A stretch of 64,000 nucleotides of DNA from Styela clava. Taxonomy: Eukaryota. The stretch lies in contig NC_135250.1 of assembly GCF_964204865.1 (NCBI RefSeq), positions 11,160,001 to 11,224,000 of the forward strand, read 5' to 3'. Numbering within the stretch: position 1 is the stretch's first letter; every line of letters starts with the position of its first letter. Below the pieces are notes generated by a model. It worked only from the letters and a program-made list of their open reading frames with translations, was not told the origin of the DNA and ran no database searches. Below, in pieces: positions 10,024-62,056 of this stretch. The translations under genes and the position numbers were made by a program.

Positions 10024-11069
10024 CAGGGGTGGGCAACCCCTGGCACGCGAGCCCATTTATTCGGCACACGAGCGAGGTCTCGGAATTGAGATCATTCTCC
10101 TTCAGGTAAAAAGCTTCAAGACTATGAATTATCTGATGAAACTCGGTTTTCGTTTATTCATTATGGTTTGTTAACAATCCGTTATTTATTTAAACTCTTT
10201 TTGCCCTTTCATTGCGTATATGGCTACAAATAAATATATTATGAAGAGCGCTGTGCCTGTGCCACCCTTTCTCTTCATTTCTACTTGATTTATGAAGTTG
10301 TAAAGCTCATGTTGGCTAGAGTTACTTGCTAACTTACTGTCATAAATTGATTTCGAAAGAAGTATAAGCGATTAGGGAAGGGAAGACAAGAGAGGAGTGC
10401 AGAAACGAACTATTGCGTGATTGGGATGCCCGAGAATTTTTCGTGTTCTAAAAACTTTGCAACTGCATTACTCTCCATGTTTTCATCTACATATTATGCT
10501 TGTGAATTTTGGTTCTCAGTTATGAACTTTATTGGGGGCTCCCGAAGTATGCGAACCAAGATGGCGGACATCGGAATGTAATATGTGTACTAGGTTAGGG
10601 TTAGGCCATAATTTTAGGTATAAATACTACCGGAGGCTCTTGGCTAGTCTTCGAACTGATAATAGGACTAAAATGAGGAAAATTGGAAAAAAATTATTGC
10701 CTAACCCTAACCTGTTACCCATGTTACGTTCCGATATCCGCCATCTTGGTTCGCATACTTCGGGAGCACCCTTTATTGAGTCTCGTAATAGGAGTAGCCT
10801 GGAAGTTATAAAATATAAACCCAATGTAAAATCTTTATCAGCGGTAATGCAGCTGATATAGAATAAGAAAAGTAATCAAATCTATTTGTCAAACTGATAT
10901 TTTCCCGATTATTGAATCTGTCTGTACACGTTTAAAAGGTTTATTATTGTGTATTTCTGCTTTAAAAGTGGCAAAGCATTGTTTTTAATTTCGGTCGGCA
11001 CGCGGAACAATTTTGTCGATAAAATTTGCCGATTTTGGCACGCGAGTCAAAAAAGGTTGCCCACCCCTG
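10024..11069. mobile_element. Non-autonomous hAT (Buster/Charlie-like) element carrying a nested MITE
   Basis: Perfect 15-bp TIR caggggtgggcaacc/ggttgcccacccctg and perfect 8-bp TSD gcttagac. A second, inverted copy lies at 30329-31225. Confidence 0.92.
10535..10770. mobile_element. Merlin-like MITE with ~80-bp TIRs containing telomeric ttagggttagg, nested in the hAT element
   Basis: Starts ggggctcccgaagtatgcgaaccaagatggcgga and ends tccgccatcttggttcgcatacttcgggagcacc. 8-bp TSD ctttattg. Absent from the paralogous hAT copy at 30329-31225. Confidence 0.88.
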
Positions 11070-14799: not shown

Positions 14800-16825
14800 A
14801 TGGCGTCCAAGCTGGTAAGATTTTTCACCATACAACATATATGCTATTTACTGCAGTACCGGTACTAACCTGCTAACTGTTATCAGAATACTGTATTCTG
14901 GCGGTACCGGTAGCAGTATAGGTACAAAACTGAATCAAACTGCAAAACTGAAAAGAATACTTGTAATCTGTGCTTCCATATCATATCACAGTACCTTATC
15001 ACTGTATCGTGGGCACCTTTGCCGTACACAAACAAATGTTGTCAGTAAAACATCCAACAAGTTGACTATTAAACAACAATTCCTGAATTCACTAGACGAA
15101 TCCTCCGAATCACCAAATTCGGAGATTATAAATTCTAATTTGGGCGCACGTTCACTAAACGGCCGTAAGTACTTCTAATTGGCATTTAACAAACATTTTT
15201 ACATACGTTGATCCTAATCATGATTTGGGAATCCCACCATGGTTTTGCGGCAGCTCTAGGCGCCACAAAATAATTGAAACTGCACTTGCTAATTTGAGTA
15301 GTCTGGCGAGTGTATATTACGAGATTTTTTTTTTAGCAATCAAATGCCTTGTATCTGTGTAACATACGGTAGTGCAATAGTGTACAGTACGGTACCGGTA
15401 GCTATCATGACTGGTGATCTAAGCTTTTAATCTCATATCAAAAATGTTTCATCCACGTAGAAATGAATTTGGTGGCATCGTTTCGAACTATACTGTTAAT
15501 GCATTTTTGTTCAGACAACAGGGTTAGTGGGATTAGCCGTGGAAGCAAATGGCAAACAGAAATTAGCATTGCTTTACAAGAGAACACTTGAAATAGTGGG
15601 GAATATGCCACAAACTGCAGAATATCGGCAGAAAACAGAGGCTGTAACCAAGCACCGACAAACTATTCTCAACAAGGTAAATACTACTGCTATTTTTATC
15701 TTTCAAGCATTTGAGAGGTAAAATAATATGACTGGAAAAACTAGAACAGTAATTAGAGGTCAAAAATTTAGGAAATTAATTAATTTTTGTCTCATATCTT
15801 ATATCAGACTGATCCATATAATATATATTTAACTGAGAGGTGGCCACCTTTTTCGTCTTCAATATTTTAAATTCATCTACAACAATTTAAATGAGTTTGA
15901 ATTAATTTCCCTTTCAATCTTAATAATAGCTATGAGACCAACTGTATAGGTAACACAAGAATATGATAATTCCAAGCATTGTTGTGATTTTTGGTCTCAT
16001 GGCCACCCAAACACTATGAACTAATAATGGTGAAGTATGTAGGAATATTTCATTGCCAAATCTAGGCCCTTTGCAGCAAGAAACCAAGCAAACTTCTGTT
16101 ACTCTCACAAGATTCCACCAAACATTCAAAGTTGTGCATTGGTGATTAGTTCTGAATGCTAGTCATTACTCTTAATGTGTTATCAAAACAGCTTACCAGA
16201 AAATGGGCAAATCCGGCCAGTTGTGTAATTTTATCTGGCCCGTCTGATGCTGCCACAACCAAACTAAAACCAAATTTTGAAGTATACTAAAAATAGCTCA
16301 AGTTTGTTGAGATTGCGAATAAATTTAGTTTTGACATGTGGCCTATTGTTTTCCACTTTTGCTTTTCTAACACTGTAAATATTGTTCATAAAATGTAACT
16401 TTTCACACTTACATGGCCTGTGCAAAATTTTTCGCCCTGGTCCAGAAAACCTTGCCTATCCCTGCTCTTATAGCTCTCATTGACACAGTGAAAGACTCTT
16501 GATTTATATTTAATTTCGTCTAATCATTTTGTTGGAAATTAAAAAGACGAAGATCATGCACACTTGGGCAGGACTATCAGTTAAATTCCTTATCACAATA
16601 TCAACAGACTCTCATTTATCCATGATGTCTACATGCCATTTTCTCTCTATCATTTTACAGTACACAGATATGGCACTGGTAGAAGAGCATATTGGAAATG
16701 GACAAATTGAAGAACTCATAATTCAGGCCAAGAATGAACATCATCTTGCCAGGGAAATGGCAGAATGTCGACCATGGGAGACATTGGTTGGAGAAGCACC
16801 ACCTGGACAATGGGACTGGCCATGA
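14800..16825 (+). CDS. NDUFA5: NADH dehydrogenase (ubiquinone) 1 alpha subcomplex subunit 5
   Basis: Exons 14800-14814, 15515-15676 and 16661-16825 give MASKL-TTGLVGLAV...YRQKTE...GQIEELIIQAKNEHHLAREMAECRPWETLVGEAPPGQWDWP, the characteristic NDUFA5 sequence. Confidence 0.93.
16197..16464. mobile_element. Degenerate hAT-type MITE in NDUFA5 intron 2
   Basis: Decayed TIRs cagaaaatgggcaa/ttgcctatccctg with subterminal ccggcc/ggccc motifs. Confidence 0.45.
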
Positions 16826-19268: not shown

Positions 19269-20579
19269 CTTTTAGGTGTGTGAACAGGTACCACTTCTTT
19301 TTGGCAAACCTGTTTTATATTCTGTGCGCTTTCAACCTTGATTAATATTTTATCTGCTCTTCTGATTCTACATACAGTTTTTATTCGTTTTTTTTCCCCA
19401 CTTTATCGTCTGGTATGCTGATTAGGAGTCAAAATACATATGTGTGGACTTTGAAGGATGGTTGTAGTCAACTTTTTTTGTATTCATCCTAGGAAGAGGG
19501 AAAACCACTGCGGTTTGAATACTTCAAGCATTTGCGGGATCACCAGATTATAAAATCAACCAATCGATCAATTGTATTTTGGTCGCAACTAAAATAAAAT
19601 AACAGCAAAAACAAAATAACGACACATACACACATTTCCCTATATCTGATTGATAAACAATCGCGTTGGTGTTTACCTGATGCACAAATCAAGACGACAC
19701 GGTGATTCTACTAGGAACAATTGAGAAGACGTCAAATATATAAATTATAAAGAATAGGATTTTCATATATATATATCTCCGAGGGGAGTCGATGAGACTA
19801 GTCGGTAAATTCATAATGCCAGATGAAAGCCGTAGCCGGTCATTAATCTCGTGAACCTCCATGCTAGGAATTCAAAAAAATGCAATAATTGCAGGTTTTT
19901 AAAGTAACCATCACCCTTGGTTAGCTTTCCTGGTAGAAAAATCACTTTTTATTTAGACCTTGTGACGGATTTGGAATATCTTATCTCCTATTATGCTAAG
20001 AACTAAATTTTATTTTAATATTGCTGTGGGCTATTATTTTGCTCTCTAGCAAAATACGGTAAACTTTAGTATGTCTACGAGGAAAAAATAAACTCATACA
20101 TCGATCTTGGATGCTCAGACAAATTTCCTAGTTTCATGTGCTTGACTTGCGCTTTGTGCTATGGAAGCAATGAAGTCTCTAAAGTAGCCTACCAATTGAA
20201 TCTTATAAACATGGATTCAAAGCTCGCACACATTCTGTGTCGTATACAGCTCATTAAACAATATAAGCACGTTAGGGCACCAAGCAAAGAGTGGCACCAC
20301 AGAAATTTTAATAGTAGAATTTTATATAGTTTTTCGGTGTTTATTTAAAATATTACGAGTTCACCATACGACAAAAAACATCAAAATGTTCGCTTATTTT
20401 TCGTCTTCAAGTATCATATTAATATATTATCCTTATTTATCAGTAATAAACAATGAAACTTATTTATTGGACACGAAAGAAGCCTATGAGTCGTTTAGTA
20501 AAATTGTCGTTGTTTTTTCTTGTGCCTTTATTTTTTTAGTAAAAACACTCCTCTGTTTTCAAGCGTGGGCCATGTCATA

Positions 20580-22438
20580 TAGTAGGGCGGGGGAAGATAG
20601 ACACACGGGGTTAGATGGACACTTTTTTTCAAATTGACCTATTGGCGACATCTTATGGGGCTTGGTTCTGCAAATGCCATTGCCGAGTTCGTTGCTAAGG
20701 AGGGAATTCGTTCTAGCCATTTCGGTTCAGCGCTTGGCGTAGTTCGTCAGTTGTGTAGCTTTCCACGTGGCTTGTGATTTTTGAAGGGTGAAAAAAGGGC
20801 ATTTAGTAAGGATACGTTTTTCTTGGAGGCACTATATGCTCATTTTCAGCGAAGGAACTCTGAATCGCGCATTTGTTGGTAAGTTTATACTTACTGACAA
20901 TGATTAAGGACTAACTGAGCGACTTGTGCCATCTAGCAGCTAACTATATCTTTCAGCATGTGATCATGTAAAATGGGGGGGGTTATGAGGGGGTAATAAA
21001 TTTCTTGCGTTTTTCGGGCTTATATTTACTTTGACCGTTCAAACCCGTTCTTTGTGAATAAGATTCCAGAAAGTCTTCTTTTTAATTTTGTTATTGCTTT
21101 TACCTGTCAAAACACTTCTTGGATAATCTCAATAATCTTATGAAATTATGGGGGGTGGCCATCTTACCCTTATGTACTATCACGTTTTTCCAGATGCAAG
21201 TTTTGGATGCACGGGAAACAGAAAATCCTAAAGAATGTTGAGAAAATACCAAAGAATATCAAACAGAGGCAAATAACAAATAGAGACTAAGATGTACCAC
21301 CTCATGAGGTTAACACCACGACAGAGGTAGAAAGTGTCACAAGTGAACCATGCTGCTCTGTGCTCTCTAACGATTTTTTCAAGTAGAACTTCACCAGGAG
21401 TTCAGTTAGTTTCTGATAAAGTCAGTGATTCTTTGGGGCAAGAAAATAGCAGAGAAATGATAGCACCAGTTTATCATTTGAATATATTTGCCTCTTCCAG
21501 TAGCCACTCAGAGAGCCAAGAGGCAAAGAAAGCCATTCAGGCAGGAATTAGAGTGTTAACAAGTGAGAAATATGTAGCCGAACTGTCAGCACTCGCAGAA
21601 ACAACGCCACCTAGCTCGTTCAGGAAAACTACAGCACTCGCAGAAACGATGTCATCTAGCTCGTCTAAGAAAGTTGCAGCTCCCAGGAAGAAAAAAGAAA
21701 ATAAACGTAAGAATGAGCGACATGAAAGATATTGTTACAGTAACCTCTGTGCTGTCTGCAACGGCAATTTTTTTGACGACGAAGAGGACGAGGGATGGAT
21801 TCAGTGCCAGAAATGCCAAAAGTGGCTTCACAATATTTGTGCCGGGATTTATAGAAAACACATTGTGTTCTTCCAATGTGATGACTGCTCTGCTTGAAGC
21901 TTTTTTGTATAAATATTTTCATTCGAATGTAAAATTCCATGACGATAGCTTTCATGCTATCCCAGATGTTCTTTTGGTGTTATGATTAAGATTTGTGTGA
22001 AAGTATGATCAAATAAAATTTGGCTGCTTTACTAGGTGGTGTTTTATCATACTTTCGTGAACAATTATATGGGTTCACAACTTCAAAAATTTAAGGGGTA
22101 AGATGGACATAGGGGGAATTTTCGAATACCCCAAAAAATTTTCCAAATACATTGCTTATTTTGATATTCTGATAAGAAACAGAACGCAATACTAGTATTT
22201 TGATGCGATTTTATCACATGTCCGTCATATCCGACCATATGTCCAACTTCCCCGAATTTTTTTTTCGTTAAAAAACGTTTCTGCTGTTGCGATGGTTGGA
22301 GACCGGCGGACGCCGCCGAGTGGCTAAAGAGTTCAGCCCCTTATGTTTGTACTTGCAAAGTTTTAGGAATATTTGAAGAAAGGTTTTCGAAATATAGATA
22401 ATTTTCAATAAGGGGGGCCATCATCCCCCGCCCTACTA
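20580..22438 (+). mobile_element. Internally deleted pogo/Tc1-mariner-like DNA transposon
   Basis: 15-bp TIR tagtagggcggggga/tcccccgccctacta, flanked by TA on both sides. Carries a transposase-C-terminus-like ORF. Confidence 0.82.
21334..21897 (+). pseudogene. Remnant C-terminus of a pogo-like transposase with Lys-rich stretch and PHD finger
   Basis: C4HC3 pattern CAVC...WIQCQKCQKWLHNICAG...CDDC, preceded by RVLTSEKYVAEL and a KKK-rich segment. Lies inside the TIRs. No DDE domain is visible. Confidence 0.7.
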
Positions 22439-24187
22439 TAGTAGTGGCGAAACGCAGAGCCGACTCAACGCCGCGCAATTCAGTTTTTTTCAGCAAGGTC
22501 CCGAAATACCAACTTAGACGGACTTGGTGGTTATTTGACGATGGCAAATGACGACTTGGCGAAGTTTTCTATAACAATTCGTAATAAAATGATTGTCACA
22601 AGAAAAGTGGCATAAGGAAAACACGGTGGAAACGTATTTACTTGACCATCACGCAGTGTCTGGTTTGATTTCAAGTAATATCTGTCACGAAAGAATATAA
22701 TTTGAAGCAACATTAAACGCGAGATGCGAAAAATACAACGGTAATTCTCGGGAATTAATTTTAAAATACCTGAGAGCTTTAAATATTTATCATATTTAAA
22801 AGAACGCCACCCATGCAACATAATAGCAGTCTGATTAGAACGGTAAACTCTCGTTGTTTATCAAATTTGAAGTAAGTAAACTCGCGATATTTCGATCACT
22901 CTTGGGTTTTCTCCGACTTGCGGCCCGCGAGACTTCGTCAAAAGTTTTTGCAGTTCTTCAACTTCGAACCACCCTATGGTAGACTACTAGTACCGGTAAA
23001 ATTTCAAACTACAGTTGTGACTTGTATCCTTTGGTATTCCGAATCGCGTTGAGACTGGAGACATGAATCTTTATTAGCCAACCTACATGCGACCGCGATC
23101 AACAGAAATCGTCAAAATAGTTCGCGATCGACTAATCGGTAATAAGGTCACACACAAAAACAAACGAGTTCGAATATGCAAATAATTGCACACATACATA
23201 CAAAAACTTCCGCCACTGTCAATAGGCTCGATTCTTTGGACTCATTCTTAATGAAATCGCCATAAAATTTTGTATTTCTTATGTCCCATTTAATTTAATA
23301 GTTTGGTTATGCCATCGCGTACACAGTACTGTATTATTCCGGTTTTAAATGCGCACAACATGCGCTGCATGAAACTGGTTCAAGACAATATTTTGAGGTA
23401 CTTATTAAATTCTCAGACGTGGCGATCGACGTGTTGGCCACCCCTGTCGTATATCATCGAACTAAAATATTACGCTAATGTAAATTGCATTGCTGGTCAC
23501 TTCATCAAAACTGAAAACAAAAGCTATTCTGAATGAGCAATACCTAATGGACGACTTCGGCGCTCCTTACGAACATCAGTACATAGACATCATTGCCCAA
23601 TGGCCAATGCCCTCCCTTTTCGCCACATATTTACATTAAGACAGGTTCGGTTAAAGACCTTTTAAATTCAGATATTCAGCAAATTAATACTGGGCGCTAT
23701 GTAACGACTCCCATCAATATGTAAAATTGCACAAAAAAAATGGAACACACAACAAGTTCCGAAGCACTGATGAACACCATTCGCTAGGTCTATTCACACA
23801 AGTGCTGACCACTGATTCTGAAGCTGATAGCAAATACCAAATGTGAATGGCCCTAATTCGATAATAAAATCGAGATCAGAGAATTTATTGATCAGAATAC
23901 ATTTAATCAATATCAATTTAGTAAAATCAATATAAACAGATTTAAACAGATGAAAAAAACTTATAATAATAATTTATACTCTCGAACTGGTTCCATAAAC
24001 TCCATCTCGTTTGAATGAATTTGCTTCAGTTTCCGTTGAGCTATTAAGAGATTTTTTGTATGAATTTTTGTTAACTACATATATTTTAGAGTGCAATAAA
24101 AATAAAACACTAATTTTTACTTCGTTATGTTTTACTACTAAGCTATTGAAAGGATGGTGTAGGGGTTTGCAGTTAATCGAAATACCC

Positions 24188-27100
24188 TCATGGACAAAAC
24201 AACTCAATAAAAAAAGGTCTCCTGATCATAATTAACATGCCACCAATGAGAAGCACCCCATAGAATATGTTTTTAACAACAATAAACTAATAGAAAATAT
24301 ATCATACCATTGTGAGGTGGAAGGAACGCTCTTAATTTGCTTTGAAGCATCTCGACAAATTTGATTCAACAGTGTCTTGACAGCTATGATTGATGCATTC
24401 TAAAAATATGTCAAATTATAGAGAATTCAAACTGCTCAAACTTTCTCCAGTGAGGTAACAAAAACCAAATAGTTTAACGTTACTTTCTACTATATCCAAG
24501 GATAGGATTTTTGCATTAAACTTAATAGAAAACAAGATGAAAAATACAGATTCAAACAATAAGGCAAACCCACGGCCTCTCATGTGGGGATCTGACAAAG
24601 AAGCTATGTAGCTTTTGGCCTAGTTTATCTCTGTCCTTCCTAGGTCATTTTGGGTTGTAAAGTAGTTGAAGTATTAGACTGAACTATGATTGCACTACAG
24701 CTAGGATTGGGTATTCTAAAATACCATTTAATTTCAGAATCCACTAGAGTAGTTTTTTCGACTCCAATCTCGAATACCACAAAAATACATAAATTATTGA
24801 AAACATAGAATCCATCACTCATCAATTCACTGAGTTGACACATATGAGTTGACATAAATTAAGAAACATGTTTCACTAACATCTCACCGGGAATACAATA
24901 TTCACAGGTCAGAATTACATTGTAAAAAATAAGTCTCCAATAATGAGGAATTCATCTCAACCATAGGTGGACAAAATGGCGACATGATATAATTTCTTCC
25001 ATATCAGTGGCTTATTGTGTGCAGTACCATGTTTGAAGCAAAAAGCTTATAAATACATCACATAAATAAATATCAGTTCACTATAACACAACATCATAGT
25101 ACACAAATGGACATTATGGACTTTCCAAATAGACTGCAACTAGAGTCGAAATATGTTTACTTATTCAATAGCAATCATAGTATCTACCTCTGGTTCTGTT
25201 GGATTGAACTTTGTTACTTGATCGAAGAAAGGATGATGAATTGAAACATGCAGTGAAGCACATTTATCTTCATCACAAAGGAATTGTACCAACTGTAAAA
25301 AAGATATTGACATTCAAAGAAACATGTATAGCGCTTCCTGCACTAGTAAGTAAAACTACAATAGGATAGAATAAGATTTTTCAAATTTATCACAAAGGAG
25401 TGAAAAGTCAATGAGACAGCTTAATCATATGGCGAACCACGACCGCCCGTCCAGTCACCAGGCCGTGTTGGGTATTAGATTATTTAACCAGTTATTTGTT
25501 TCAGATGCATGGACTTGATGGAGGAAGGCGTTACCAACCAGTGGGTACGCGAAACACCCTTCAATTGAGAGTGCAGCAACCCTCTCACATGTAATTATAC
25601 CCCACATTAGTCGAACCTGCGAACCCACTCTGAGTAACCAGAGGTGGGATAGCGAGCATATTCCTAACGCTTATATAAAATGATCATATACTATAATATC
25701 TATCCAATATTGAATATCTAATTTTTTTTAAATATGTCATTCCATGGTTAGTAAGGGAACAACGAAAATGACAATTTTTAAGAACTAACCTGCACTATTT
25801 CAGGTCTACACTTTGTTTTCAAATGTTCAAAATGAATATCTTTCAGTTTCTCTTTCTGCTTTGTTTTCGTCTGTTTCTTTGAGGGATCAAGTTGAGCATT
25901 TGATGCATAATTCACAGGAAATCCAGTAGCCATCTCAAATACAATTTGGCCTACATCGAAATTAAATTTTCAGAGACATTTAGAAATTTCATGAACAAAG
26001 AGATAAATTATACATAGACATTCGATATCGTGGATGTTTATGGTAGTACGAAAATATCTTTTCTTTGGCTTGGCGGTGTGGTATTTTGTGCTAAGCGTTA
26101 GGAATACACTCGCCATCCCACCTCTGATTAGGCCCGAATCATGTGGGAATAATTATGTAAGAATAAATTGCTGACTCCTCGCCGCTGTAGGGTGGTTCAC
26201 GTAACAGCTGGTAAGTTATGGCTTTCGCAACTAGCAAGTCCATGCATCTGAAAACAAATACCGGTAACTGGCTAACTAATCCCATACCCAGCATGGACTG
26301 ATATCAGGACGAAAGGCCGTGGTTCGCCAAATAATTAGGCAGTCTTATCCTCCCTCATGGGATAAATATGCATATCCTATCCTAATTTGAGCAGTATAAT
26401 GATTTATTCGAAGTTTTGTCGTCGAGTTAATCACAACACTGAACTTAGTTACCAATGCTTCATCTTACCAACTGCATTGAGTGTTGCCCGATCATCATTC
26501 GATTCCTGAATGTACTTCGTTCTCATTTGTACAAGTTCGATTTCATAGCCAGATAATTTACAAACTCCTTGATCGATAAATACATTCCGAGCATGTAACC
26601 AATGATGAGTCTAGTTAAAACAAGACCTATCATCAGAATTTATTGTATTCAATCAAGGATTGCCAAAATTAACCACATTTTGAAATAGTATTGGTAAATA
26701 TGGAGTATCGAAAATATTTTAAATTGGGCCATTTTCAAAAAAGAACAAATACAAGGTGACCCAATGAAGGGAACTCATAAATACCAATCACTTTTTATTT
26801 AATTTTCATCATTCAATAAATAAAGAACGTTAGGTCATACTGTCAAACTGTTCAAATTGATAATTCCTCTCCCAAAACATTCTAGTTTATTTATAAAATC
26901 AATAATTTGAAATACAGAATATATTTAATTTCGAATCAATGTGATAATTTTATTAGTATTTCAACATCCCTAACAAAAAAAGACAGTGTAAACATACCAC
27001 CTTTTTCATTGGGAAACGAAGTTTATCCAAAAATATTAATCCGAGTAATATTTGCTTCGTATAAACGCATATCTTCTCCAGTGAAAAAGGTTTTCCAAAA

Positions 27101-30100: not shown

Positions 30101-33100
30101 ACAATAGGAGAAATATTTACAAAAATCGTCAAGATATTTTGTGAGTGATAATGTTTCTCAACCCAAATATAAGTGTGTGACTCAACAAGTATAAGTATAA
30201 AAAAACACAAAGTGACTGAAGCTTAATAACATACATCTGCTCAAATACTGCAAACACAATTTTTTTAAAATAAAATTGGTGCATTCACCAACATTTACAT
30301 TCAAAATGAAATAGCAGAACGTTTAAGGTAGGGGTGGGCAACCTTTTTCGGCTCGCGTGCCAAAATCGGCTACACGTGCCGACCAAAATTGAAAACAATG
30401 CTTTTCAACTTTCAAAGAAAAAATATACAATATTAAACCTTTTAAACATGTAGAGACAGATTCACTATTCTGGGAAAGTTTCGCCCAACAAATAGATTTG
30501 ATTATTTTCTTATTCTATATCAGTAAGACTTCTGCTGCTGTATTAGCCTGATAGTTACATTGGGTTTATATTTAGTAAGGAAATACATGAATTACTGGTT
30601 TCATCTTTCAGGCCACTCCTGTTATACTAGACTTGATGAATTTCATAACTGAGAACAGAGGTACACAAACAATATGTAAATGAAAACATGGAGAGTAATG
30701 CAGTTGCAAAGTTTTTAAGACACGCACACCAAATTTTCAGCAATGGCATCCCAATTACGCAATAGTTCGTTTTCTGCACTTCTCTCTTGTATTCCCTTCC
30801 CTAATCGCTTATATTTCTTTCAAAATCAATTTATAGCAGTAAGTTAGCAAGTACCGGTAACTCTAACCAACATGAGCTATACAACTTATTAAATCAAGCA
30901 GAAATGAGGAATAGGGTGGCACAGACGAACTATATTGCGCAATGTAGCCAAATAAATGCAGTACTCTTCTCGACAAAATTTATCGTGAGCTCACTCATTT
31001 GTTATTTCATAATATATTTCTTTGTAGCCATATGCTACTAAGGACTACTAAATAAATAACGAATTGTTAACAAACGATAATAAATAAACGAACGCCTAGT
31101 TTCATCAGATAATTCAGAGTCTTGAACTTTTTATCTAAGGGAGAATGATCTCGTTTCCGGGGCCTCCTCACTCGCGTGCCGAATAAATGGGCTCGCATGC
31201 CAAAGCCAGGGGTTGCCCACCCCTGGTTTGAGGTATTCAACAAACAGAGATGGAGTCCATGCCACTGGAACTTATTGTTTGTTCTATAGTCATTGTGATC
31301 AATTATGCTGAAAAGTTTATAGAATACAATTTTTTTGGTAAAATCAATCAAATTGGTTGAAAGTTAGGTAATTCTGATTGCATTCACTTTGTACTGAAAA
31401 GTAATTTTAAATATTAATATTATTTACTCTTAAGATAGAAATATCACCAAATCAAATTACCTATTTGTTTGTAAGATTGTATAAACTCTAATTTACTCAA
31501 ATGTCGCAAGTAATATTGACAGCTCATCAATGCATGATCATATCCTGTTAAAATAAGGTTGTATGAATAAATTTCTGTTTGCAGTTGAAATATTTAAAAT
31601 CAATGTATAATTAAATATAAGAAAACGATTGATCTTTCAATGTCTAACGTCAGAAAAAATCAAATATTGAATGCATATATAGGAAAATAAGAACTAAGTA
31701 ATAATTAGGAAAGGCAATATTAGTTTTAAAAGTCACCTAGATTTTGATTACAAAACATTTACTCAGGTTGTTTGGAACATATTCAGAAAAAACATAACTT
31801 CTGTGCAAAGCATCATAGATTACTGGAACTTTTGGGTACAATCAACGCAAACAGATGTTCAGGTGATCAATCAATTTTCTGCATTTCTGTACAAATAATC
31901 AAGAAATCAATAGATTTCATATTTTTTTTCCGGGTCACCCTGTACGTATTGTCACAATTCACACGAAAGCAAACGACATATCAATAAATTGTTCAAAAAT
32001 GGAAACAAAACTTTATTCAAATTTCTGTCAGATAATAAATCACCTTGATGGGAAGTGGAAAAGTCGGTTCCTTGTTGATGCAACAGCAACGAATTTTCAT
32101 CAAGTATTAATGTGTATTCAGATTTTTTTCTGAAATGAAAAAAAAACAAAGAGTAGAAACAGTGGATGAAGATTTGATAATGAATAACTCTCATGTTTAA
32201 CTAATTTTGATCACTTGATTTAATTGTTCCATTTAGCAGCTTATAATATGTGTCAAGTAGTAATGACCTTATTTTGGAATATAAATAAGTAAGGTGTGAC
32301 ATTGTTAGCATGAGCACTATCTGGTTATTTTCAAACACTTATCCATACATATGCCATTGGTAGCTTCCACTGCTTGGTCATAGTTAGGTTTGGTTCAGCA
32401 TTTTCTAACCAATTCATTACCCCTGGGTAAGGGATTTGAACCAGAGATTTTAACAAACCACAAGGATTTACAAGTCTCAATGATGAAACCTATAAATTTT
32501 CATATGCTTTTTACACAATATGCTAGTTTGTGCATTTGGAAAAATGCAGCCGAACACCAACAAGATATACCTTAGTTCTCCTCAAGTATAAAAATGTATG
32601 GTTGATAATCGAATAGAAATAGTGTCTAAAAATAGTATATACCTTTTAGGTGCGGCAAGCATGACTGCATTAATTAGTACTATCTACTTCAATTGATTAA
32701 TTAATGCATAGTATTATCCCTGCGTTATTATTGAATATTGATTGACCTGAAGCAAGCTGTATTATACCTATAAATATGAGAACTCACCTGAACATGCATA
32801 AAATCACTATATATAGAAGTTGAAATAAAACAAGGGCTGAGATTCCTATAAACACCTAAAATAAAATATTTTTTTGATTCTGTTAAGACTAATTTCAGGC
32901 AATTACCAGAAAAGAGTTAAAAAAATTTTACCAGACTAAATCTGAGATGTTAAAATCGATGTTATTAAAAACAACCGAAGATATATCAGGAATGTTTGAT
33001 AGCAAATTCCATGGAGCCCACTAATGAATATACTGTGTGCAAATCCCAAAGTACCAAATAAAGCTGCCATGCAAGCTTGTAGAAAACACTAATTTCATTC

Positions 33101-34118: not shown

Positions 34119-34490
34119 TTAAGGGTACGAAGATGTAGAAACAGAGGAAGACGGTGACTGGGGTGCTGACATTCGAGGTTGTTTACGAGGTGGACCATCG
34201 GATGACAATACATCAGGATTTTTATTAGAGTCTGTGTCAACATGGTTCATTTCTTCTGAAGAACTTTTCCTTTTTTCAACGTCGCCATTCAATTTTTTAT
34301 CAAGTTGAAGATATAAATATCGCAATAAAATATTACTTCTGTCGGAAACTATTACTTGTTCTACTGGTTGATCTTCCGTAGAAAGATAAGAAGTCAATTT
34401 TTTGGCAGTTTTGCTCGAGTCGGATTTAAAATTTGAAAAATTGTTCGGATTCTGAGAAGGTAAACCTTTCAGCATGCTTTTTCCAGACAT
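34119..34490 (-). CDS. DDA1: DET1- and DDB1-associated protein 1, intronless
   Basis: LKGLPSQNPNNFSNF...YLSTEDQPVEQVIVSDRSNILLRYLYLQLDKK matches the DDA1 family signature. The ATG is immediately preceded by a tttcag acceptor. Confidence 0.9.
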   Translation of the reverse strand: MSGKSMLKGLPSQNPNNFSNFKSDSSKTAKKLTSYLSTEDQPVEQVIVSDRSNILLRYLYLQLDKKLNGDVEKRKSSSEEMNHVDTDSNKNPDVLSSDGPPRKQPRMSAPQSPSSSVSTSSYP

Positions 34491-34596
34491 CTGAAACCAC
34501 AGTCTTTTACAATAAATAAATTGCAGTATAATCTAACCTACAAAAATACAAAATGTTGATAAAACACACATGAGAACAATTTTGCAACTGAAGATA

Positions 34597-36225
34597 TTAT
34601 CGAGACGTTTTCTTGCATAGGATGTAAAGAAATCTTCCAGTTCTGCCTTCTGGAACATGAGTATGAAAAGCAGTGGCACAAATATTGTAATTATCCAATG
34701 GGTCATAAGCTTTCAACTTATCATACAATGAATCAAATAACAGAATCCAGTAAGGTCGATCAGCGAGGATTTTTTGACTAAAAATATTATTATCAAGCCA
34801 CTCAATAGGATTACTATGAAACTGATCTGCTTCGTCACTATAATTCTTTATACCAGAAAGATTTGGAGGGCAAGTTAGGAATCTTGTGGTCACATTCAAA
34901 TGAAGATGGGAATATAGTGGTGTAGTATGACATGGCATCAGGTATAAGACGCTTCCAGGACAATTAGAAATGCAATTTTCAGCAAGCAAATCTTTCAATT
35001 TATCAGTTATTTCCAATGGACCTCTTTGATGAATGAGTCCGGTATACAAGGCCACAGGTACATTTGTAATCAATAGAAATATTAACGATGTGTTTCTCAT
35101 TTTTTTTGAAAATGTTGACAAACTAATACCAGAGAAAAGAGACGCTATTGGAACAAGATGAAGAACAAATCTAAATTCCTTGTGTCCAAGAAAACTATAA
35201 ACTAAAACAGTGAATAAGAATAGAGATAACAAACATTTGCATATTTTTAAATTTTCTGTAGATAATTTAGCAGGAAATGTATGTTTCATTACAAAAGCAG
35301 CACCAAAGATGAAAAATATCATTTGAGTGGTAAGGATAGCAGGTATACCTTGAGTGATATACCAATGCCAGGGATGAGTGCCATAATGCACACCCATATC
35401 CTCCATAACATTGAATTTAAAAAAGTTCCATGGCACAAATACGAACTTACCATAATAAAATAAATCAATTAAAGTGGACGTTATCAAGACAAAGAAAGAT
35501 TGGACTACATATGACAGAAATACCATTGCATTGCGGCTTCTAAATATATGCCATAAAGCTAATGGTACCCAAATTACAGCAGCTGTTGGTCTAATTACAG
35601 TAATTAATATAGCGATTAATTGATAAATTGCTACTTTGCTAAGATACCAGTGGGCAGTATTCCAAGGATAATAATACAATCCAATACATAACAGATTAGT
35701 TTCGAATGTATTTATTATTGTCCTTGTGGAGCAATACCACCAAAACCAGTTTATACAGTTGCATAGAATTCCGTAATTCGCAATTTCATAACCAAAATAA
35801 AGCTTCACAAATTTATAAAGATATACATCACCAATTGCGCTCAAGAAAGCTTGAAACAACCTAGGACCATATATAAGTGTCACAGGATTATCAATGCCAA
35901 GAGAATTTAAAATTTGATATATCCCAGAAAAAATAGCAGGATAAATATAACTTCGTAGTCCATATTTCCATTCCCATGTTAGATATCCATACCCAAAAAC
36001 AGACTTGTAGGCAACTTCTAATGACTGCCAATATTCATCAGGTACAAATGAAGTTCTTACTAAAAATGTATTGATGATACGAAGACAGATCAAAGACAAA
36101 ATAAGGTATTTTTCAGAATCACCAAATTCTTTATCATCAGATCTTATTTTTGTATTTGTTAACTTGTGTTGCGCCTTTATATCAGATTTGCCATCAGTCT
36201 TCTTTCTTTGAGTTAATTTTGACAT
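34597..36225 (-). CDS. PIGB: GPI mannosyltransferase 3 (Glyco_transf_22 family), intronless
   Basis: TSFVPDEYWQSLEVA, GYLTWEW, HPWHWY, HKEFRF, HQRG and LMPCHTTPLYSHLH motifs, with multiple TM segments. Confidence 0.95.
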   Translation of the reverse strand: MSKLTQRKKTDGKSDIKAQHKLTNTKIRSDDKEFGDSEKYLILSLICLRIINTFLVRTSFVPDEYWQSLEVAYKSVFGYGYLTWEWKYGLRSYIYPAIFSGIYQILNSLGIDNPVTLIYGPRLFQAFLSAIGDVYLYKFVKLYFGYEIANYGILCNCINWFWWYCSTRTIINTFETNLLCIGLYYYPWNTAHWYLSKVAIYQLIAILITVIRPTAAVIWVPLALWHIFRSRNAMVFLSYVVQSFFVLITSTLIDLFYYGKFVFVPWNFFKFNVMEDMGVHYGTHPWHWYITQGIPAILTTQMIFFIFGAAFVMKHTFPAKLSTENLKICKCLLSLFLFTVLVYSFLGHKEFRFVLHLVPIASLFSGISLSTFSKKMRNTSLIFLLITNVPVALYTGLIHQRGPLEITDKLKDLLAENCISNCPGSVLYLMPCHTTPLYSHLHLNVTTRFLTCPPNLSGIKNYSDEADQFHSNPIEWLDNNIFSQKILADRPYWILLFDSLYDKLKAYDPLDNYNICATAFHTHVPEGRTGRFLYILCKKTSR

Positions 36226-37279
36226 GCTCGGAAATTTCAGATGTAAAAATTATTAACACCAAATGAATAAAGCTGAAAAAACGAAACGAGAGGTTGAATA
36301 ATGCCCGAATTTGTTTCACTTGTTACAAATTTTACAAAGAAAAAAAATCAACGAAGTACCGGCATGTGTTTCATGATTGAATTCACACAACCATTGTCGA
36401 AATAAGCGACATTATCAACTCAGTATTCCAATGAATGGAAACAATAATCAGCAATACCAAAATGGTCCACTATTCGACTAATGTGAAAAATACCATAGGA
36501 TAGCAGAATTATTCTAAAAATTCTGCTAAATGATAATATAGAAAAAAGGGCAATATGTATATAGAATAAAATATAGAGAAAGATTCTCACAGTCGCAAAG
36601 TGGGAACAAAATAAAAATAATGAAGTTTAAAACAAATTTGGTAGTGAACATACAACTGAAAAGAGTGGTGCATGACTCAAAAAAGACAGAACATTGTAAT
36701 TTTTTTTTAAAGGCCTTATTTTACAGTATTTAAAGTATTAATAGTTAGTTCACTTCGAGTATAGAGCACTGATAAAGACTTTGCTGCATCATCAATATCA
36801 TATTAGATATTTTTAAACAGTTTAGCATTTTCAAAGCCTTCAAAAAGGAAAGAGAGTAGGCTAAAATAGAAAAGATGAGACAGCATATAGTTTTTTGGTA
36901 GTGGATATTGTAGTGTTAGATTGTCAGTCCAGAAGTATTTCTAGAATAAGGAAAAATTCAGAATTGTCTCAAATTTTACATTGGAAAAACTGATTTTGAT
37001 TGTCCCACTCCCAACAATAAAAAAAATATTAGCGAAAAGTATTACCAGTAGTACTATAAAAGTACATATACTAGCCATGCATTGAACAGCAATCATCTCC
37101 TAATCCTATATCTGACTTTGATTTGCAGTTCGTCAGACAATAACATATGCCATTCTGGTTGTCCCATTTGAGGTTGAAGACTGGCTACAGTATTACAATA
37201 ATGATTTTAAAGATTTTAACCAATTGAACACAAATCACAACAAAAAAGTTGAAAGCACAGAAAGTGTATGCTGAGATGA

Positions 37280-38557
37280 TTATTTCAACATTACCACTGC
37301 AAAAACAGTGCTTTCTCTTGATATCAGATCACTGTTCTGGTCAAAAAGTTTTTCTTGGTGGCCAATGAGATTTATGAAACCACCAATTTCTCCCATTCCA
37401 TATATTCCCAAGAGCGGAACATTTGGAATCATTTTTCTAAATGCTTCTTGTTCAAGATTACGTGGAACGTCTGCAAAATCATCAGTATCTTCTTCAACGT
37501 ACCATTCTTGAGGATTAGCACGAGAGCAACAAGCTACCATAAAGCCCAAAGTTTGCGAATTACAAGATGCACAATGGCCAAATTTATTTTTGAATTTACA
37601 CATATTTGGGCAGTTGGCACCAAAAGATTTTACAGTTTCCCGTAGCGTTTCTAAACATGCATTTAATTCTTTGATAGTGTCAACATGAGATCCTACCAAA
37701 ACTGATGCAGAACGTACATTTTTACCTTTAAAAGATACTATTACATAATCTTGAATACCATTGGTACTATTGGCTGGTCCATTATCAGGATTAAAAATAA
37801 TTAAAGTTTCGAAAATGCACCCAATAACAACAACCCCACGACAAGCTGCCGGCTTCAGTATATTCTTGTGTAAAGGTGACAAAGATGAATCTTTTGAAAC
37901 TACTGACACAAAAACTAACTTGGTGTCACAATGTTCAAGTTCGTCACCAACAGTTTGAATAAACTTATCATGATCCTCACTTGAATGTTCTTCTTCCAGA
38001 TTGAAATAATTGACAGAAAATAAGTTTGATAAACTCTGTGGAAATGATATATAATTGAAAACATCACTGATATCATCAACAATATTCTCTATTGAAGCTT
38101 TCTCACTATCCACACATACAACACTGTACACTGACCTTAGAGTTAGTAATTTATTCGCAGGTGGAAGCCAATATCGTATCATATTTTCATGATCATAATT
38201 GAAACTATTGATTATACGATCATTTGACATAGAGACAGATATCCCCGCGGTCGGTGCACAATGCCATTCTTTTCTCCACTCAGAAAATTCTTTGTACATA
38301 CTGGAGTTCTTTTCCCATGTCATTTGTCTGTTTGATCTCTTGAATTTTACAGTTTGTTTATCCTCATCACAATTTTTCACATAAGTGATATATTCCACTT
38401 GATTCACACTTTTTCTCCCACGAAGAACATCTGCAGAGCAAGATTTCCATGATTTACAAACTGATTGTAAACGTAATAAATCTCTGGCCGACAAAAAACT
38501 AAATATCCTTTCCAGAACTAATGGTATATTTGTCAAAACATATTCGACTTTTTCCAT
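37280..38557 (-). CDS. FBXO22: F-box protein with FIST C-terminal domain (FBXO22-like), intronless
   Basis: N-terminal F-box (VLERIFSFLSARDLLRLQSVCKSWK) and FIST-C motifs GFMVACCSR and EQEAFRKMIPNVPLLGIYGMGEIG. A t9cag acceptor at ~38572 precedes the ATG at 38557. Confidence 0.85.
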   Translation of the reverse strand: MEKVEYVLTNIPLVLERIFSFLSARDLLRLQSVCKSWKSCSADVLRGRKSVNQVEYITYVKNCDEDKQTVKFKRSNRQMTWEKNSSMYKEFSEWRKEWHCAPTAGISVSMSNDRIINSFNYDHENMIRYWLPPANKLLTLRSVYSVVCVDSEKASIENIVDDISDVFNYISFPQSLSNLFSVNYFNLEEEHSSEDHDKFIQTVGDELEHCDTKLVFVSVVSKDSSLSPLHKNILKPAACRGVVVIGCIFETLIIFNPDNGPANSTNGIQDYVIVSFKGKNVRSASVLVGSHVDTIKELNACLETLRETVKSFGANCPNMCKFKNKFGHCASCNSQTLGFMVACCSRANPQEWYVEEDTDDFADVPRNLEQEAFRKMIPNVPLLGIYGMGEIGGFINLIGHQEKLFDQNSDLISRESTVFAVVMLK

Positions 38558-40028
38558 TTTATAAGATACTTCTGAAAAAAAAATAACAAGCATAGGATAT
38601 AGTTACAATTACAAGCATATAAATGAAAATCATTAATAACTCATTTAAAACTAATAATACCAACAGGAGATAATTTTAAACAAATATGGATATGGGATCC
38701 TTGATTCAAGCCCATTTATAAATCACTATCCATTTAGAGTGGAAAAATAAAGTCTAACAAGACATTTCAAAATCCACTTTTCTAAAGCTTAACAAGACCT
38801 GGTGGTATCAAATCAAAACTCTATATCCCAAACATATATCATTATAATTAACTTAGTTGTGAAATCAATTACTAATGTATTAGAAAATTGAACAATACCG
38901 GTAAATGATTTCAGTCAAAACTTGGGCACAAATGAATAAATACAAATATTGTGCCATTTTGGATGTGTTTTGCACGTGCTTTATCAATGAGAAATTAGTG
39001 CCTTTTTAAAGTATATAGATTAATTACGGAAAAATAAATTGCCGCCACACACAAAATATAGTTTTGTTCAACCACAAGTTATCTATATAATAAGAGTTGT
39101 CAATGACAGCAAGTTTCAAATTAATTATATTCGAGGTACAAACATAAGAGTGCGACTCGTTAGAAAATTATCGCTTAGGTGTTCAAATGTTAAACTTACA
39201 CTTAAAAATTTATGTATTTGACAAAAACACGCAGACAAAAAAAATTACAAAATAATCCACCAAGCACTGCAGAAAAGTATAGTCACATTTATTATTAATA
39301 CACCACAATAACCAATGATCCTACACCGACATCGTTTTGCTACAAGGTTTTACAAATGGCCTTCTATTAGGTAATAAGGTTGGTTGAACAGGGAACCCAA
39401 CTTTGTGTTAACCTAGTTGAAAATACACTGCTCCGACTATGAGATGTGGATGAAGACATCTAGCAAATCATTGTCAGATTTCATCATGCTCAACAAAGAC
39501 CATTACTGGCATAAAACAATAATTTTTTAGTAAATTTAGTTATAGATCATTATTTAAGTACCTTATTTAAAGAGATTTCAATTATATCAATTGCAGCTCG
39601 TTAAGGCAGTTTATCATAAATTAGATACTCGGTTGGAAAGTGGCATAAAGTTACATACAGACAATAATGACACAAGGCAAAAATATATATATATTCGCAA
39701 CTATAGTATGAACTAGTATATGAAATAATAAAATCAGCTTTATTCCCATGTGTTGAATTTGTAGTTTCAACAAACGAGAAAAATTACAAGAAATTACTGT
39801 TTCATATAATAGATGAGGAAAGAAGATGAATTAATGGTACAATGGAAATGATATATATTCACAGTAAATTATACATCTAAAAGTACCAAATGAAAGAGAC
39901 TTTATATTTGTTCTCACACCATAAATGTTGCAAACATACTGCGGATAACAATAACAATCAAAGTTAGAGAAAAATCACAACAACAGACCTATGATAACAA
40001 CATGTATCACAGAACAACGGAGAGAATT

Positions 40029-41093
40029 CTAGCCTTGATCATCTTTCCATCGTTGTGGAGCAATATGTCCAACCAAATAAATATTATCATACAAATGTCC
40101 TGCAAAATCAGAATCAACCGCCGCAATTGCCTGAATTGGCCCTATATTCTCCTGGGGCATCCCTCTTCTATTTTGTAGTTGAATATTGCCTTGGGCGTGT
40201 TGTCTACTGTATTCCACAACCGCTGAACGAACATTGCGTACAAATTCCCGTTTTGACATTTTATTTTTGACCTGTGGACTAGTCAAATCAACAGAGAGTA
40301 ATATAAGAGAGTAACACAGTATCGCAACAATCTCAGGTACAAGAGCAATATCAGGATTATCGTTGCAAAATCTCACAGCAAACTTATCAATGAGCAAATT
40401 AAGATATTCACCTCTTGAAATCGGAGCATCGACTGCCTGGAAAAATTTTCTCAATGCATTAGGAAGGAACTGATTTTTAAAACTTTGCAACTTCAATAAC
40501 TCATCTAACACGTCATTTCGAGTGTTCAGATATTGACGTACTTTTTGCCAGACTAGTTGATTTGTTCCATGGAAAAACATGGCAATCTCAGAGGCATTAT
40601 CATCGAGGATGTGATTTTCAAAAAGGTATTTCATGCCCCATAAAGGCTCTGCGTTAAATGTGAGACTCCCTTCATCAAGAAGTAGATAAAGCTTTTTAAA
40701 TGACTTCCCTTCATCTTTCCATGACTTGTAGGCCGTACAATAGGCCCACGAATTTTTACAAAGACCTTCCCATAACATCTCATCATTTGCTAAATCAGAC
40801 CAAACACATGCAGCTAGGCATAAATCAGTTGCATTCAAATTTTTTAATACTTCTATTCCAATCTCAGGCGGCAACAAGTACAAATCGGGAAACTTTTCTA
40901 GCACATCTAGTCGACAACCTTTTGAACTATTTCGAAAGTTTCTTGCCCGCCGATGTTTGAAGATTTGCCACAAATATCCAGGTCTGTACAGATGGCTTGT
41001 CCCATTTTGACCGCCGTTGTTTAATCCACTGCGAGAAGGTGATGGAAAGGAACTTCCAACGCCATGGGTTTCACGTGAACTAAGTTGTCCCAT
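40029..41093 (-). CDS. FBXO8: F-box only protein 8 (F-box plus Sec7 domain), intronless
   Basis: MGQ start, LPPEIGIEVLKNLNATDLCLAACVW, LDEGSLTFN, FLPNALRKFF and LCYSLILLSVDLTSPQVKNKMSKREFVRN. Confidence 0.95.
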   Translation of the reverse strand: MGQLSSRETHGVGSSFPSPSRSGLNNGGQNGTSHLYRPGYLWQIFKHRRARNFRNSSKGCRLDVLEKFPDLYLLPPEIGIEVLKNLNATDLCLAACVWSDLANDEMLWEGLCKNSWAYCTAYKSWKDEGKSFKKLYLLLDEGSLTFNAEPLWGMKYLFENHILDDNASEIAMFFHGTNQLVWQKVRQYLNTRNDVLDELLKLQSFKNQFLPNALRKFFQAVDAPISRGEYLNLLIDKFAVRFCNDNPDIALVPEIVAILCYSLILLSVDLTSPQVKNKMSKREFVRNVRSAVVEYSRQHAQGNIQLQNRRGMPQENIGPIQAIAAVDSDFAGHLYDNIYLVGHIAPQRWKDDQG

Positions 41094-42015
41094 TGGTGTA
41101 TTAATTAACTAAGTCATTATAATACTGCATAATATATAGATATTCATTTTTAAAAGGATTCAAATAGTTCCATAATCAGTTTTTATTCGCATGATTTTTA
41201 TCTATCATTTTATCGCTTGCTTACTACAGTACTATGCTCACTATGGAGTCGCAATAAAATTTCTCATTATTGTAATTTAAATTGTGGATTCAGCTTATAG
41301 GATACTTGTAGCAGAATTTATTTGTTTGCCAAACCAGAAATCTAAGTTATACCGTACAGTTACCGGTATATCAGTATATGTATATTATAGTATATACCGG
41401 GCCTACATACAAAACATAAAGAATTTAAGTTTTTGATAAATGCAGAAATGATTGGTTAGTAACCATAGGGTCGTTGAGTGAGACAATTGAAGCATGTTAC
41501 CAATGCTGCAATGAAACACAAGTCTACAAGGGTTACAAGTAGACTACATAAATAAAAACAGAAATACTTTTACAGTTTCAATATTCTGATATTAATCAAC
41601 TCTCAACATCTCGCCTTAACTTGTGAACCATGCCCAAATGCAGTACGCTTTCGGTCTTTAATAATTTTGTACCATGAGCAATTTTTCCGCACGACCAACC
41701 GAAATACTGCGATTGCTAGTACCAGTAGTCAGATATCAGGATATTGCGTGTTTGAAAAGCTGACTCGCAGCTGTTTTATTTGCGATACCAGTACCTAATC
41801 TATACTGGTAGTAGTAGATACCTTTTTTGGTAATGAACAATTGATTACGGTATCCTATAACAAAGTGTTTCTAGGGACATTGGACCCATAACCAGAAAAC
41901 GGTACGGAGTAGTACGTTACCCTATTCACAAAAACATAACTAATGCACGAATAAAACCAGACCACAACAAAAGAAAATTGTCGAATATTGCGAAAAACTT
42001 TTGCAAGAATGACCT

Positions 42016-60867: not shown

Positions 60868-62056
60868 GGGCAAGGCGAGGTGTCATTGGTTCGCGATGAC
60901 CTGAGTACTGGTCTGGAGTAGTAATTGGTTTAGTGATGAAAAGAAACCGTGACAAGTAGGCTACATATATTTTCATATCACATGTTGCTTCGATCTTTAA
61001 GGTGGTTGGATATTTGGGTCTAGTTAATTTATTACCATAAACCTTTATTAAAATAACACCAAATAAAAATGTGATGTGAAAATAGCCGAAGCTGCTTAAA
61101 TAACGCCAAACAGAAATGTGATGTGACGTTTATATGTTTTTTTAAAATATCTCTATGCCGCGGAATGAAATTCTTAACAGACCCATTTAGTTAAAATAAA
61201 GTCCACTCAATTTTCAACTAAGCAGGTATATTCCATGCCAAACAGGGTATAGCAACTTTTATTTGAAAAAATAATGAAGTTTGTTCGGTGTTATGTTATT
61301 TAAGCAGCAATAGCATTTATTTTCACATCCGAATTTTGTTTGACGTTTTTAGGCATTTGCTGCGTGTACCTCGTTCTGTCGTTAGACTCAAAAATTTGTA
61401 AATAAAGTACCGTTGTTTGCTTTCATCTTACATGACTGTGATCTTCAGTCTTGTATTTTATAATTTGATATCTCCGATCTGCTACCTAAAGTCTCTATTT
61501 GAAGTGAATAATATAAAATAATCTTCTGAAGGTTGGCATCAATATTTTAATACCATACCGGTAACGCATAAAATTAGTAACTAAATGTAGTAGTCTACTG
61601 ACTGTAGTAAAAAAATAACTGACAAGCAATGTCTAAAAATTATTCAGTAATTGAACTACTTTCAGACTTTAGAAGCGATTAATTAATACAGTACGGTACC
61701 GGTAATAACAATTAATTGTAAATTTTATGCTAAACTTCAACACGATAATGGTTATCAGACTATCCAGCAGTTCTCATACTGCTGCACTGAGATATCACGA
61801 CTGTGTAGACTGCAGTAAAATTTCAACCGTGTTAGTGTATACCGGTACCGTAGGTACCCTACTGACAGACTGTCTGTACGAGCACTTTTCGCCACCAGTC
61901 TAAGGTATTTTCAAACAACTGATACGAAATTCACTAGTTCAATAAAGAACTACCAGTACAAATAATCAAAACACGCAGCTAAACAATCAACTGGAGAAAT
62001 AACGCTAACCTTAACGAAATACAGGTGCATGGGAAAATATATTCAAGCCTGTCCAT

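What the first reader, a model, noticed from the sequence alone, without database searches (positions are those of the whole stretch)
30852..30859. Direct evidence 1: CCGGTA inserted at a TA within a hAT MITE copy
This copy reads aagttagcaagTA-ccggTA-actctaaccaac. The paralogous copy (reverse complement of ~10311-10335) reads aagttagcaagTAactctagccaac. The difference is a clean 6-bp insertion of CCGG plus a duplicated TA, which is the geometry of an excision footprint.
Basis: seen in the sequence. Interest (0 to 1): 0.7.

Follow-up and report, generated by a model that had tools for sequence, protein, structure and literature searches.

The report
Transposon excision scar inside a MITE
One copy of a small repeat carries six extra bases at a TA that no other copy checked has; they are most likely the scar left when a resident jumping gene with matching ends landed there and cut itself out, one of probably ten thousand or more such scars in this animal genome and a large natural record of a known process.

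Summary
Confirmed. TACCGGTA at 30852-30859 is a 6-bp gain private to this MITE copy: 1 of 100 listed family sites has it, it is the only CCGG at that TA genome-wide, its three closest sister copies lack it, and an independent contig carries it. The word occurs 30,656 times (control 4,861). At five repeat TA sites, 164 gains include 8 CCG, 8 CGG, 5 CCGG and no CATG. This fits a 3-base staggered cut whose CCG overhangs usually give 3-base scars and sometimes pair by their terminal CG (0.55); fill-in of two 2-base overhangs remains open (0.33). Excision footprints are textbook, and this scan has noted the same signature in other genomes (diatoms, a ray, other animals). What is added: matching donors and a polarised scar spectrum. 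No allele with the element still at this site was found.

The parts
30852..30859 (.). TA-CCGG-TA: duplicated TA around a 4-base core; the gain is 30854-30859 (CCGGTA)
   Evidence: contig without differences
30329..31225 (+). Host repeat: 897-bp non-autonomous element with (C/T)AGGGGTGGGCAACC inverted ends (hAT-type MITE)
   Evidence: no ORF of 110 aa or more
30321..30328 (+). Left copy of the host's 8-bp target duplication (GTTTAAGG)
   Evidence: 7 of 8 identical to the right copy
31226..31233 (+). Right copy of the host's 8-bp target duplication (GTTTGAGG)
10024..11069 (-). Paralogous MITE copy with the plain TA at 10311-10337 and a perfect 8-bp duplication GCTTAGAC
26259..26266 (.). Second polarised TA-CCGG-TA gain, inside a SINE-like repeat
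   Evidence: 15 of 40 covering paralog alignments show a clean 6-bp gap
15388..15400 (.). Nested scar TA-CGG-TA-CCGG-TA (not polarised)
61692..61704 (.). Nested scar TA-CGG-TA-CCGG-TA (not polarised)
61840..61852 (.). Nested scar TA-CCGG-TA-CCG-TA (not polarised)

Best explanation
The six extra bases are private to this MITE copy and are most likely the excision scar of a pogo-type cut-and-paste transposon with CCG...CGG ends, which likely cut three bases inside its ends so that the two CCG overhangs left behind paired through their terminal CG before repair. Shown: the gain, its polarity, its recurrence at unrelated TA sites, and resident TA-flanked elements with CCG ends and DD35D transposases. 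Inferred: (1) such an element inserted at this TA and duplicated it; (2) it later excised; (3) each flank kept TA-CCG-3'; (4) full three-base overlap with a central mismatch gives TA-CCG-TA or TA-CGG-TA, whereas pairing by the last two bases (CG with CG) and filling one base on each side gives TA-CCGG-TA. Steps 1-2 together with the rival join geometry below carry about 0.88; the 3-base version alone about 0.55. Which of the four CCG-ended families did it cannot be told.
For: Private, polarised gain. Donor ends match: at least four DDE_1 families read TA|CCGT...ACGG|TA; 2,061 ends of the CCGT(A/G)TTT type against 49 control matches; six unlinked copies of family A are 100% identical over 2,942 bp. 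TA is the duplicated target for family A: the L064 site is a single TA in paralogs (92 alignments), and other copies of that same repeat TA carry CCG, CGG and CCGG. Of 164 gains at five repeat TA sites: CCG 8, CGG 8, one nested CGG-TA-CCG, CCGG 5, CC 2 (may be locally templated), GG 0, CCGCGG 0, CATG 0. Equal CCG and CGG mirrors the two canonical 3-base Sleeping Beauty scars (PMC6943129, passages; 3-base overhang in PMC7827188, passages). In 882 kb without paralogs: TACCGGTA 48 vs 5.2 expected, TACCGTA 115 vs 56.9, TACAGTA 213 vs 148.9, but TACATGTA 26 vs 22.7: CAG-type scars have no 4-base partner, as expected when the overhang tip (AG) cannot pair with itself. Scars sit next to scars: 13 of 118 neighbouring slots hold CCG, CGG or CCGG, against about 0.24% at any TA, and an intact CCG-ended element lies inside such a nest (L078). 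Passer excision gives 0-4-bp footprints (PMC9976928, passages) and its TIR oligo starts TACCGTATTTTCC like family B here (supplement row).
Against: No allele or paralog with a full element at this very site was found. The one end-to-end junction of family A, in a 7-copy array, has lost a single base (ACG/CCGT), not the three expected from a 3-base overlap (one event). GGC/GCC and GGCC scars are enriched too (112 vs 47.8; 22 vs 4.1), yet no TA-flanked GGC-ended family was found, while GGG-ended TA elements exist and TAGGGTA is not enriched (51 vs 52.4), which suits a 2-base cut for that family. TACCTA is mildly enriched (388 vs 294.5 at order 2, 346.4 at order 3). Two of five test sites showed no scars of this kind (0 of 17, 0 of 10). 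Of 39 TACCGGTA sites with any paralog, 11 showed a 6-bp gap; the other 28 did not, so much of the genome-wide count is copied within repeats. The ratio of 3-base to 4-base forms differs between repeats (about 3.6:1) and unique DNA (about 1.35:1).
Confidence: 0.55

Rival explanations
1. Same donor class, other join: the transposase cuts two bases inside, and both CC overhangs are kept and filled in (CC + GG); loss of one base gives CCG or CGG.
For: Explains GGCC/GGC/GCC from the GGG-ended TA elements that are present without an unseen family; fits the one-base loss at the family A array junction; TACCTA excess and two CC gains; ACGT, AC, GT and AGT gains at one site. The C. elegans Tc1 scar TA-CATG-TA is of this kind (recalled; the original paper is not held). 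Earlier notes on other genomes read GG...CC donors this way (unchecked).
Against: No CATG among 164 gains and no excess of TACATGTA although CAG/CTG gains occur; 3-base scars outnumber 4-base and 2-base ones; single TAG and two GGG gains match the first three bases of resident TAG- and GGG-ended families, though the GGG cases may be mutated local duplications.
Confidence: 0.33
2. Not a transposon scar: a repair or replication habit (templated or untemplated insertion at a break, template switching) that adds a short palindrome at TA.
For: The product is a perfect palindrome; most gains at the test sites are ordinary slippage products (for example 17 of 47); no filled allele seen.
Against: CCGG cannot be copied from the flanks here (AAG|TA|ACT) or at AAA|TA|ACT and ATG|TA|AAT. 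Of 16 palindromic 4-base cores only CCGG, GGCC, TATA and weakly ACGT, ATAT, AATT, TTAA exceed expectation. The words equal the ends of resident TA-targeting elements, and frequency depends strongly on the site.
Confidence: 0.07
3. The word is kept or made because it is a functional site (for example a transcription-factor site), and its abundance reflects selection.
For: All 13 window sites lie outside the six long host reading frames tested; the window has 203 per Mb against 59-81 per Mb genome-wide.
Against: It appears as a ready-made 6-bp gain in single repeat copies, with CCG and CGG variants in equal numbers; absence from coding frames is expected of insertions. Function was not tested.
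Confidence: 0.04
4. The other copies lost six bases, or the assembly is wrong here.
For: None found.
Against: Tree polarity, family census, a read-derived contig with the gain.
Confidence: 0.01

Closest known systems
Sleeping Beauty / Tc1-mariner NHEJ excision footprints (TACAGTA, TACTGTA; PMC6943129 passages; PMC7827188 passages)
   Same: Duplicated TA around the terminal bases of the element; two reverse-complement 3-base forms in equal numbers (CCG 8, CGG 8 here).
   Different: Ends are CCG, the donor is pogo-type (DDE_1; DDE_3 gave only 2 weak matches), a 4-base form joined from both ends is common, and the scars are natural germ-line products counted in thousands.
Passer (PS) family of the pogo superfamily (PMC9976928 passages and two supplement rows; PMC7386202 passages)
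   Same: Family B here has BrkDBD + HTH_Tnp_Tc5 + DD35D, 440 aa, 25-bp TIR, TA flanks and the same first 13 bases as the PS TIR oligo; the paper reports footprints of 0-4 bp.
   Different: The paper's footprint sequences are in a figure that I could not see, so CCGG may already be shown there. Families A and D (HTH_psq, DD35D) share the CCG end and could equally be the donor.
Tc1 footprint TA-CATG-TA of C. elegans (recalled; Plasterk 1991 is cited in PMC2874221 but not held)
   Same: Palindromic 4-base core made from both element ends.
   Different: Attributed to 2-base overhangs (recalled); here CATG is absent and 3-base scars dominate.
Natural excision sites between two rice genomes (PMC4423477 passages)
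   Same: Excision scars read from genome comparison.
   Different: In rice most excisions were messy (8 of 94 perfect, frequent deletions and filler); here short stereotyped scars recur often enough to distort word counts.

Membership tests
Tc1/mariner-pogo excision footprint | Gain relative to an empty TA, with the TA duplicated | tested here: met
Tc1/mariner-pogo excision footprint | Core equals the terminal 2-4 bases of a resident TA-targeting element | tested here: met
   CCG...CGG ends in four families; TA duplication shown for family A at L064
Tc1/mariner-pogo excision footprint | Same core recurs at unrelated sites regardless of flank | tested here: met
   3 of 5 test sites; absent at 2 of 5
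Tc1/mariner-pogo excision footprint | Filled allele at the same locus | tested here: inconclusive
   Two read/contig lay-downs listed no element end at the site; tables are truncated and dominated by paralogs
Tc1/mariner-pogo excision footprint | Produced by the transposase in an excision assay; length of the staggered cut | not testable with these tools
   needs a bench assay
Passer (family B as candidate donor) | BrkDBD + HTH_Tnp_Tc5 + DDE_1 in one ORF of 400-500 aa | tested here: met
   L040, 440 aa
Passer (family B as candidate donor) | DD35D spacing | tested here: met
   (L040). The 418-aa copy L054 of family C has a shortened spacing and looks internally deleted.
Passer (family B as candidate donor) | TIR under 30 bp, TA flanks, 1.6-4 kb | tested here: met
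   24-26-bp TIR, 2.2-2.3 kb; the empty-site comparison for L039 was too divergent to prove the duplication
Passer (family B as candidate donor) | Phylogenetic placement in the Passer clade | not tested
   no reference transposases were aligned
hAT MITE (host repeat) | Short TIRs and 8-bp target duplication, no coding capacity | tested here: met
   window copies 7 of 8 and 8 of 8; L002 only 4 of 8; no long ORF
hAT MITE (host repeat) | Autonomous hAT partner with the same ends | not tested
   no search made; the hAT label rests on the 8-bp duplication and on recalled CAGGGG-type ends

The most novel reading that the evidence does not exclude
This genome holds a readable archive of ten thousand or more germ-line excisions in which the scar is set by the three terminal bases of each family: every end gives a 3-base scar, and only ends whose last two overhang bases pair with themselves (CCG, GGC, ACG) also give a 4-base palindrome. 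Scars then serve as new targets, building nested TA arrays. Word counts alone would then reveal past transposon families, including ones now lost such as a GGC-ended donor, and their cut geometry.
Probability: 0.4. Interest if true: 0.58.

Novelty: new member of a known kind. Interest (0 to 1): 0.36.

Why it matters
The single site is ordinary. Its value is as a clean, polarised example of a genome-wide process: surviving CCG-ended elements number in the low thousands at most (2,061 ends of the commonest type), while the 4-base scar alone is in excess by about 49 per Mb of unique DNA, roughly 12,000 if scaled (my estimate), with a similar or larger number of 3-base scars. Excision history is usually invisible; here it can be counted, tied to donor ends and used to test how pogo transposases cut. 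It is also a warning that enriched palindromic motifs in invertebrate non-coding DNA can be scars rather than regulatory sites. Identical family A copies point to a recently active element.

Tried and rejected
1. I predicted a TA-flanked GGC-ended family and first took the TAGGCTTGCACG elements (L177, L193, L208) for it; they have 8-bp duplications (2 of 3 clear), so TA belongs to their TIR. Rejected; no such family was found in 1.8 Mb. 2. All-against-all screen for private insertions: 175 events, 0 CCGG among 7 six-base gains; the 70% cut-off also dropped the focal site because of the +3 subfamily. Too little power. 3. CpG decay as the source of CAG/CTG scars: CpG observed/expected is 0.98 and TACCATA is not enriched (165 vs 154.5). 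Not favoured. 4. Hairpin-opening (hAT-style) additions: these copy the flank, and CCGG does not. 5. Polymorphism: a 19-kb lay-down was swamped by repeats and listed no 6-bp indel among 12 of 84 rows shown; a 421-bp lay-down showed the gain in one contig of sample S1, and depth 300 across the site without the 3-base gap in S2, which only hints at its presence there. S1 may be the assembled animal. 6. Tc1-type donors: DDE_3 gave 2 weak matches. 7. TIR search around 22 further loci found no new end type. 8. Literature: nine searches (a tenth was for cut geometry) listed no paper on a genome-wide TACCGGTA scar; I saw only listings for most, subscription journals are missing, and Figure 4D of PMC9976928 is a picture that I could not read.

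Full report
1. The observation. The window reads GCAAG-TACCGGTA-ACTCT at 30852-30859, inside an 897-bp element at 30329-31225 with inverted ends and an 8-bp duplication, 7 of 8 identical. The copy at 10024-11069 has a perfect 8-bp duplication and a plain TA at the site. The element lies in non-coding DNA between a CBF/Mak21 frame (16965-18572) and a DDA1 frame (34119-34532). The genome has 377 Mb; earlier notes call it a sea squirt, which I did not test.

2. Polarity. A search with the 221 bases around the site scored 40 of 490 candidates and gave 30 loci. None of the 30 other copies aligned has CCGG: 7 are plain and 23 carry a subfamily-specific 3-bp gain. A gapped pattern found 139 sites, 100 listed: 61 plain, 37 +3, one 4-bp duplication, and this copy. 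A whole-genome count with a second pattern confirms that it is the only CCGG at this TA. The copy sits in a well-supported clade with three plain copies (12 of 31 rows used). One contig from run X3 matches 30806-30890 exactly. The six bases are a real gain in this copy.

3. The word is genome-wide. There are 13 in the window (0.33 expected) and 30,656 in the genome (reversed control 4,861; order-2 expectation about 2,900). In 882 kb with no paralog in my sample, the non-simple TA-X-TA words that stand out are CCGG (48 vs 5.2), GGCC (22 vs 4.1), GCC/GGC (112 vs 47.8), CCG/CGG (115 vs 56.9) and CAG/CTG (213 vs 148.9); CATG does not (26 vs 22.7) and CCGCGG is seen once. Part of the total is copied inside repeats: of 39 sites with a paralog, 11 show a 6-bp gap. 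Scars cluster: 13 of 118 slots beside a TACCGGTA hold CCG, CGG or CCGG (that count includes six stretches chosen for holding the word), and 3 of 13 window sites are nested.

4. Polarised spectrum. At five conserved TA sites of high-copy repeats I listed every TA-N(1-8)-TA variant with exact flanks: 70, 20, 17, 47 and 10 matches. Many are local slippage. The rest include CCG 8, CGG 8, one nested CGG-TA-CCG, CCGG 5 (one is window 26259), CAG/CTG 7 plus one nested, GGC/GCC 6, GGCC 1, ACGT 2, CC 2, and no GG, CATG or CCGCGG. Two sites had none of these, so target choice matters. G precedes the word in 40% of cases against 18% for any TA (partly through nesting), and 12 of 14 family A ends have G before the TA; the focal TA has G on one side.

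5. Donors. DDE_1 matched 126 places. Among 50 loci examined, four families read TA|CCGT...ACGG|TA. Family A: 2.94 kb, six unlinked copies 100% identical and a seventh with a 6-bp deletion; HTH_psq and DDE_1 in two frames that a GT...AG intron from about 1103 to 1307 would join in phase (my arithmetic); DD35D. Family B: 2.2-2.3 kb, about 99% alike, 440 aa, BrkDBD + HTH_Tnp_Tc5 + DD35D, ends matching the Passer TIR oligo over 13 bases. Family C is similar; family D (L078) sits inside a nest of scars. Short derivatives are common: 2,061 ends against 49 control matches. For family A the TA duplication is shown by empty paralogs of L064, and that same repeat TA carries CCG, CGG and CCGG in other copies: empty, filled and scarred states of one target sequence, though from independent events.

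6. Mechanism. Tc1/mariner enzymes nick the non-transferred strand a few bases inside the end, three for Sleeping Beauty and mariner, and end joining leaves the first or last 2-4 bases between two TAs (PMC6943129 and PMC7827188, passages). With CCG ends and a 3-base stagger, full overlap gives CCG or CGG, seen 8 and 8 times, and pairing by the terminal CG gives CCGG. CAG ends could not do the latter, and CATG is missing. Against this stand the one-base loss at a family A end-to-end junction, the lack of a GGC-ended donor while GGG-ended TA elements exist, and a mild TACCTA excess. I give 0.55 to the 3-base route, 0.33 to fill-in of two 2-base overhangs, and 0.12 to all non-transposon readings. 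The excision itself is inferred: no filled allele of this site was seen.

7. Known and new. Footprints of this family of enzymes are textbook, and Passer is reported to leave 0-4 bp (PMC9976928, passages; the figure with the sequences was not visible). My searches listed no paper on TACCGGTA as a genome-wide scar. This scan has noted the same or sister signatures in other genomes and one three-state array in this genome; those are unchecked notes and are not counted as support. Papers seen: passages of PMC9976928 (plus supplement hits), PMC7386202, PMC6943129, PMC2874221, PMC4423477, PMC7827188; all others as listings only.

8. Verdict. Observation confirmed, interpretation supported and extended with donors and a scar spectrum. 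New member of a known kind; interest 0.36. The boldest open reading, an end-sequence code for scars readable from word counts, has probability 0.4 and would merit about 0.58.

Noticed in passing
L234-L236 (G000:C6, about 21.8237-21.8413 Mb): Seven identical family A copies head to tail with no TA at the six joints, each joint lacking one G, the array flanked by normal ends and TA. Looks like an excised circle that was amplified and reinserted, or local tandem expansion of one dimer.
   Followed up: partly
window 20578-22440: A 1.86-kb element with TA|TAGTAGG ends and a PHD-finger remnant (21331-21894), inserted in another repeat; related to DDE_1 elements L057, L058, L076. Reads from other copies skip it.
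   Followed up: partly
MITE family, site equivalent to window 30849-30853: A young subfamily (37 of 100 listed copies) has a separate 3-bp gain at the same TA (AA-ATAGTA-AC), so this spot changed twice.
   Followed up: partly
genome-wide; e.g. L208 7341, L170 6106: TAGGCCTA/TAGGCTA, TACAGTA and weakly TAACGTTA behave as sister scars; their donors are unresolved.
   Followed up: partly
L078 1223-4618: A CCG-ended element with a 443-aa transposase is flanked by CGG, CCGG and CCG scars on both sides, suggesting repeated use of one spot.
   Followed up: partly
window 10532-10771: A 240-bp fold-back repeat of a very abundant family interrupts the second MITE copy.
   Followed up: no
window 46864-49275, 34597-36249, 16965-18572, 37280-38602, 40029-41108: Housekeeping genes lie in single long frames: Vps35 (all 726 profile positions in one 803-aa frame), an Alg9-like mannosyltransferase, CBF/Mak21, and two F-box proteins. 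Unusually intron-poor for an animal.
   Followed up: no
L177 5668-7419: An element with TAGGCTTGCACG ends and an 8-bp duplication is inserted in a copy of the same MITE family.
   Followed up: no
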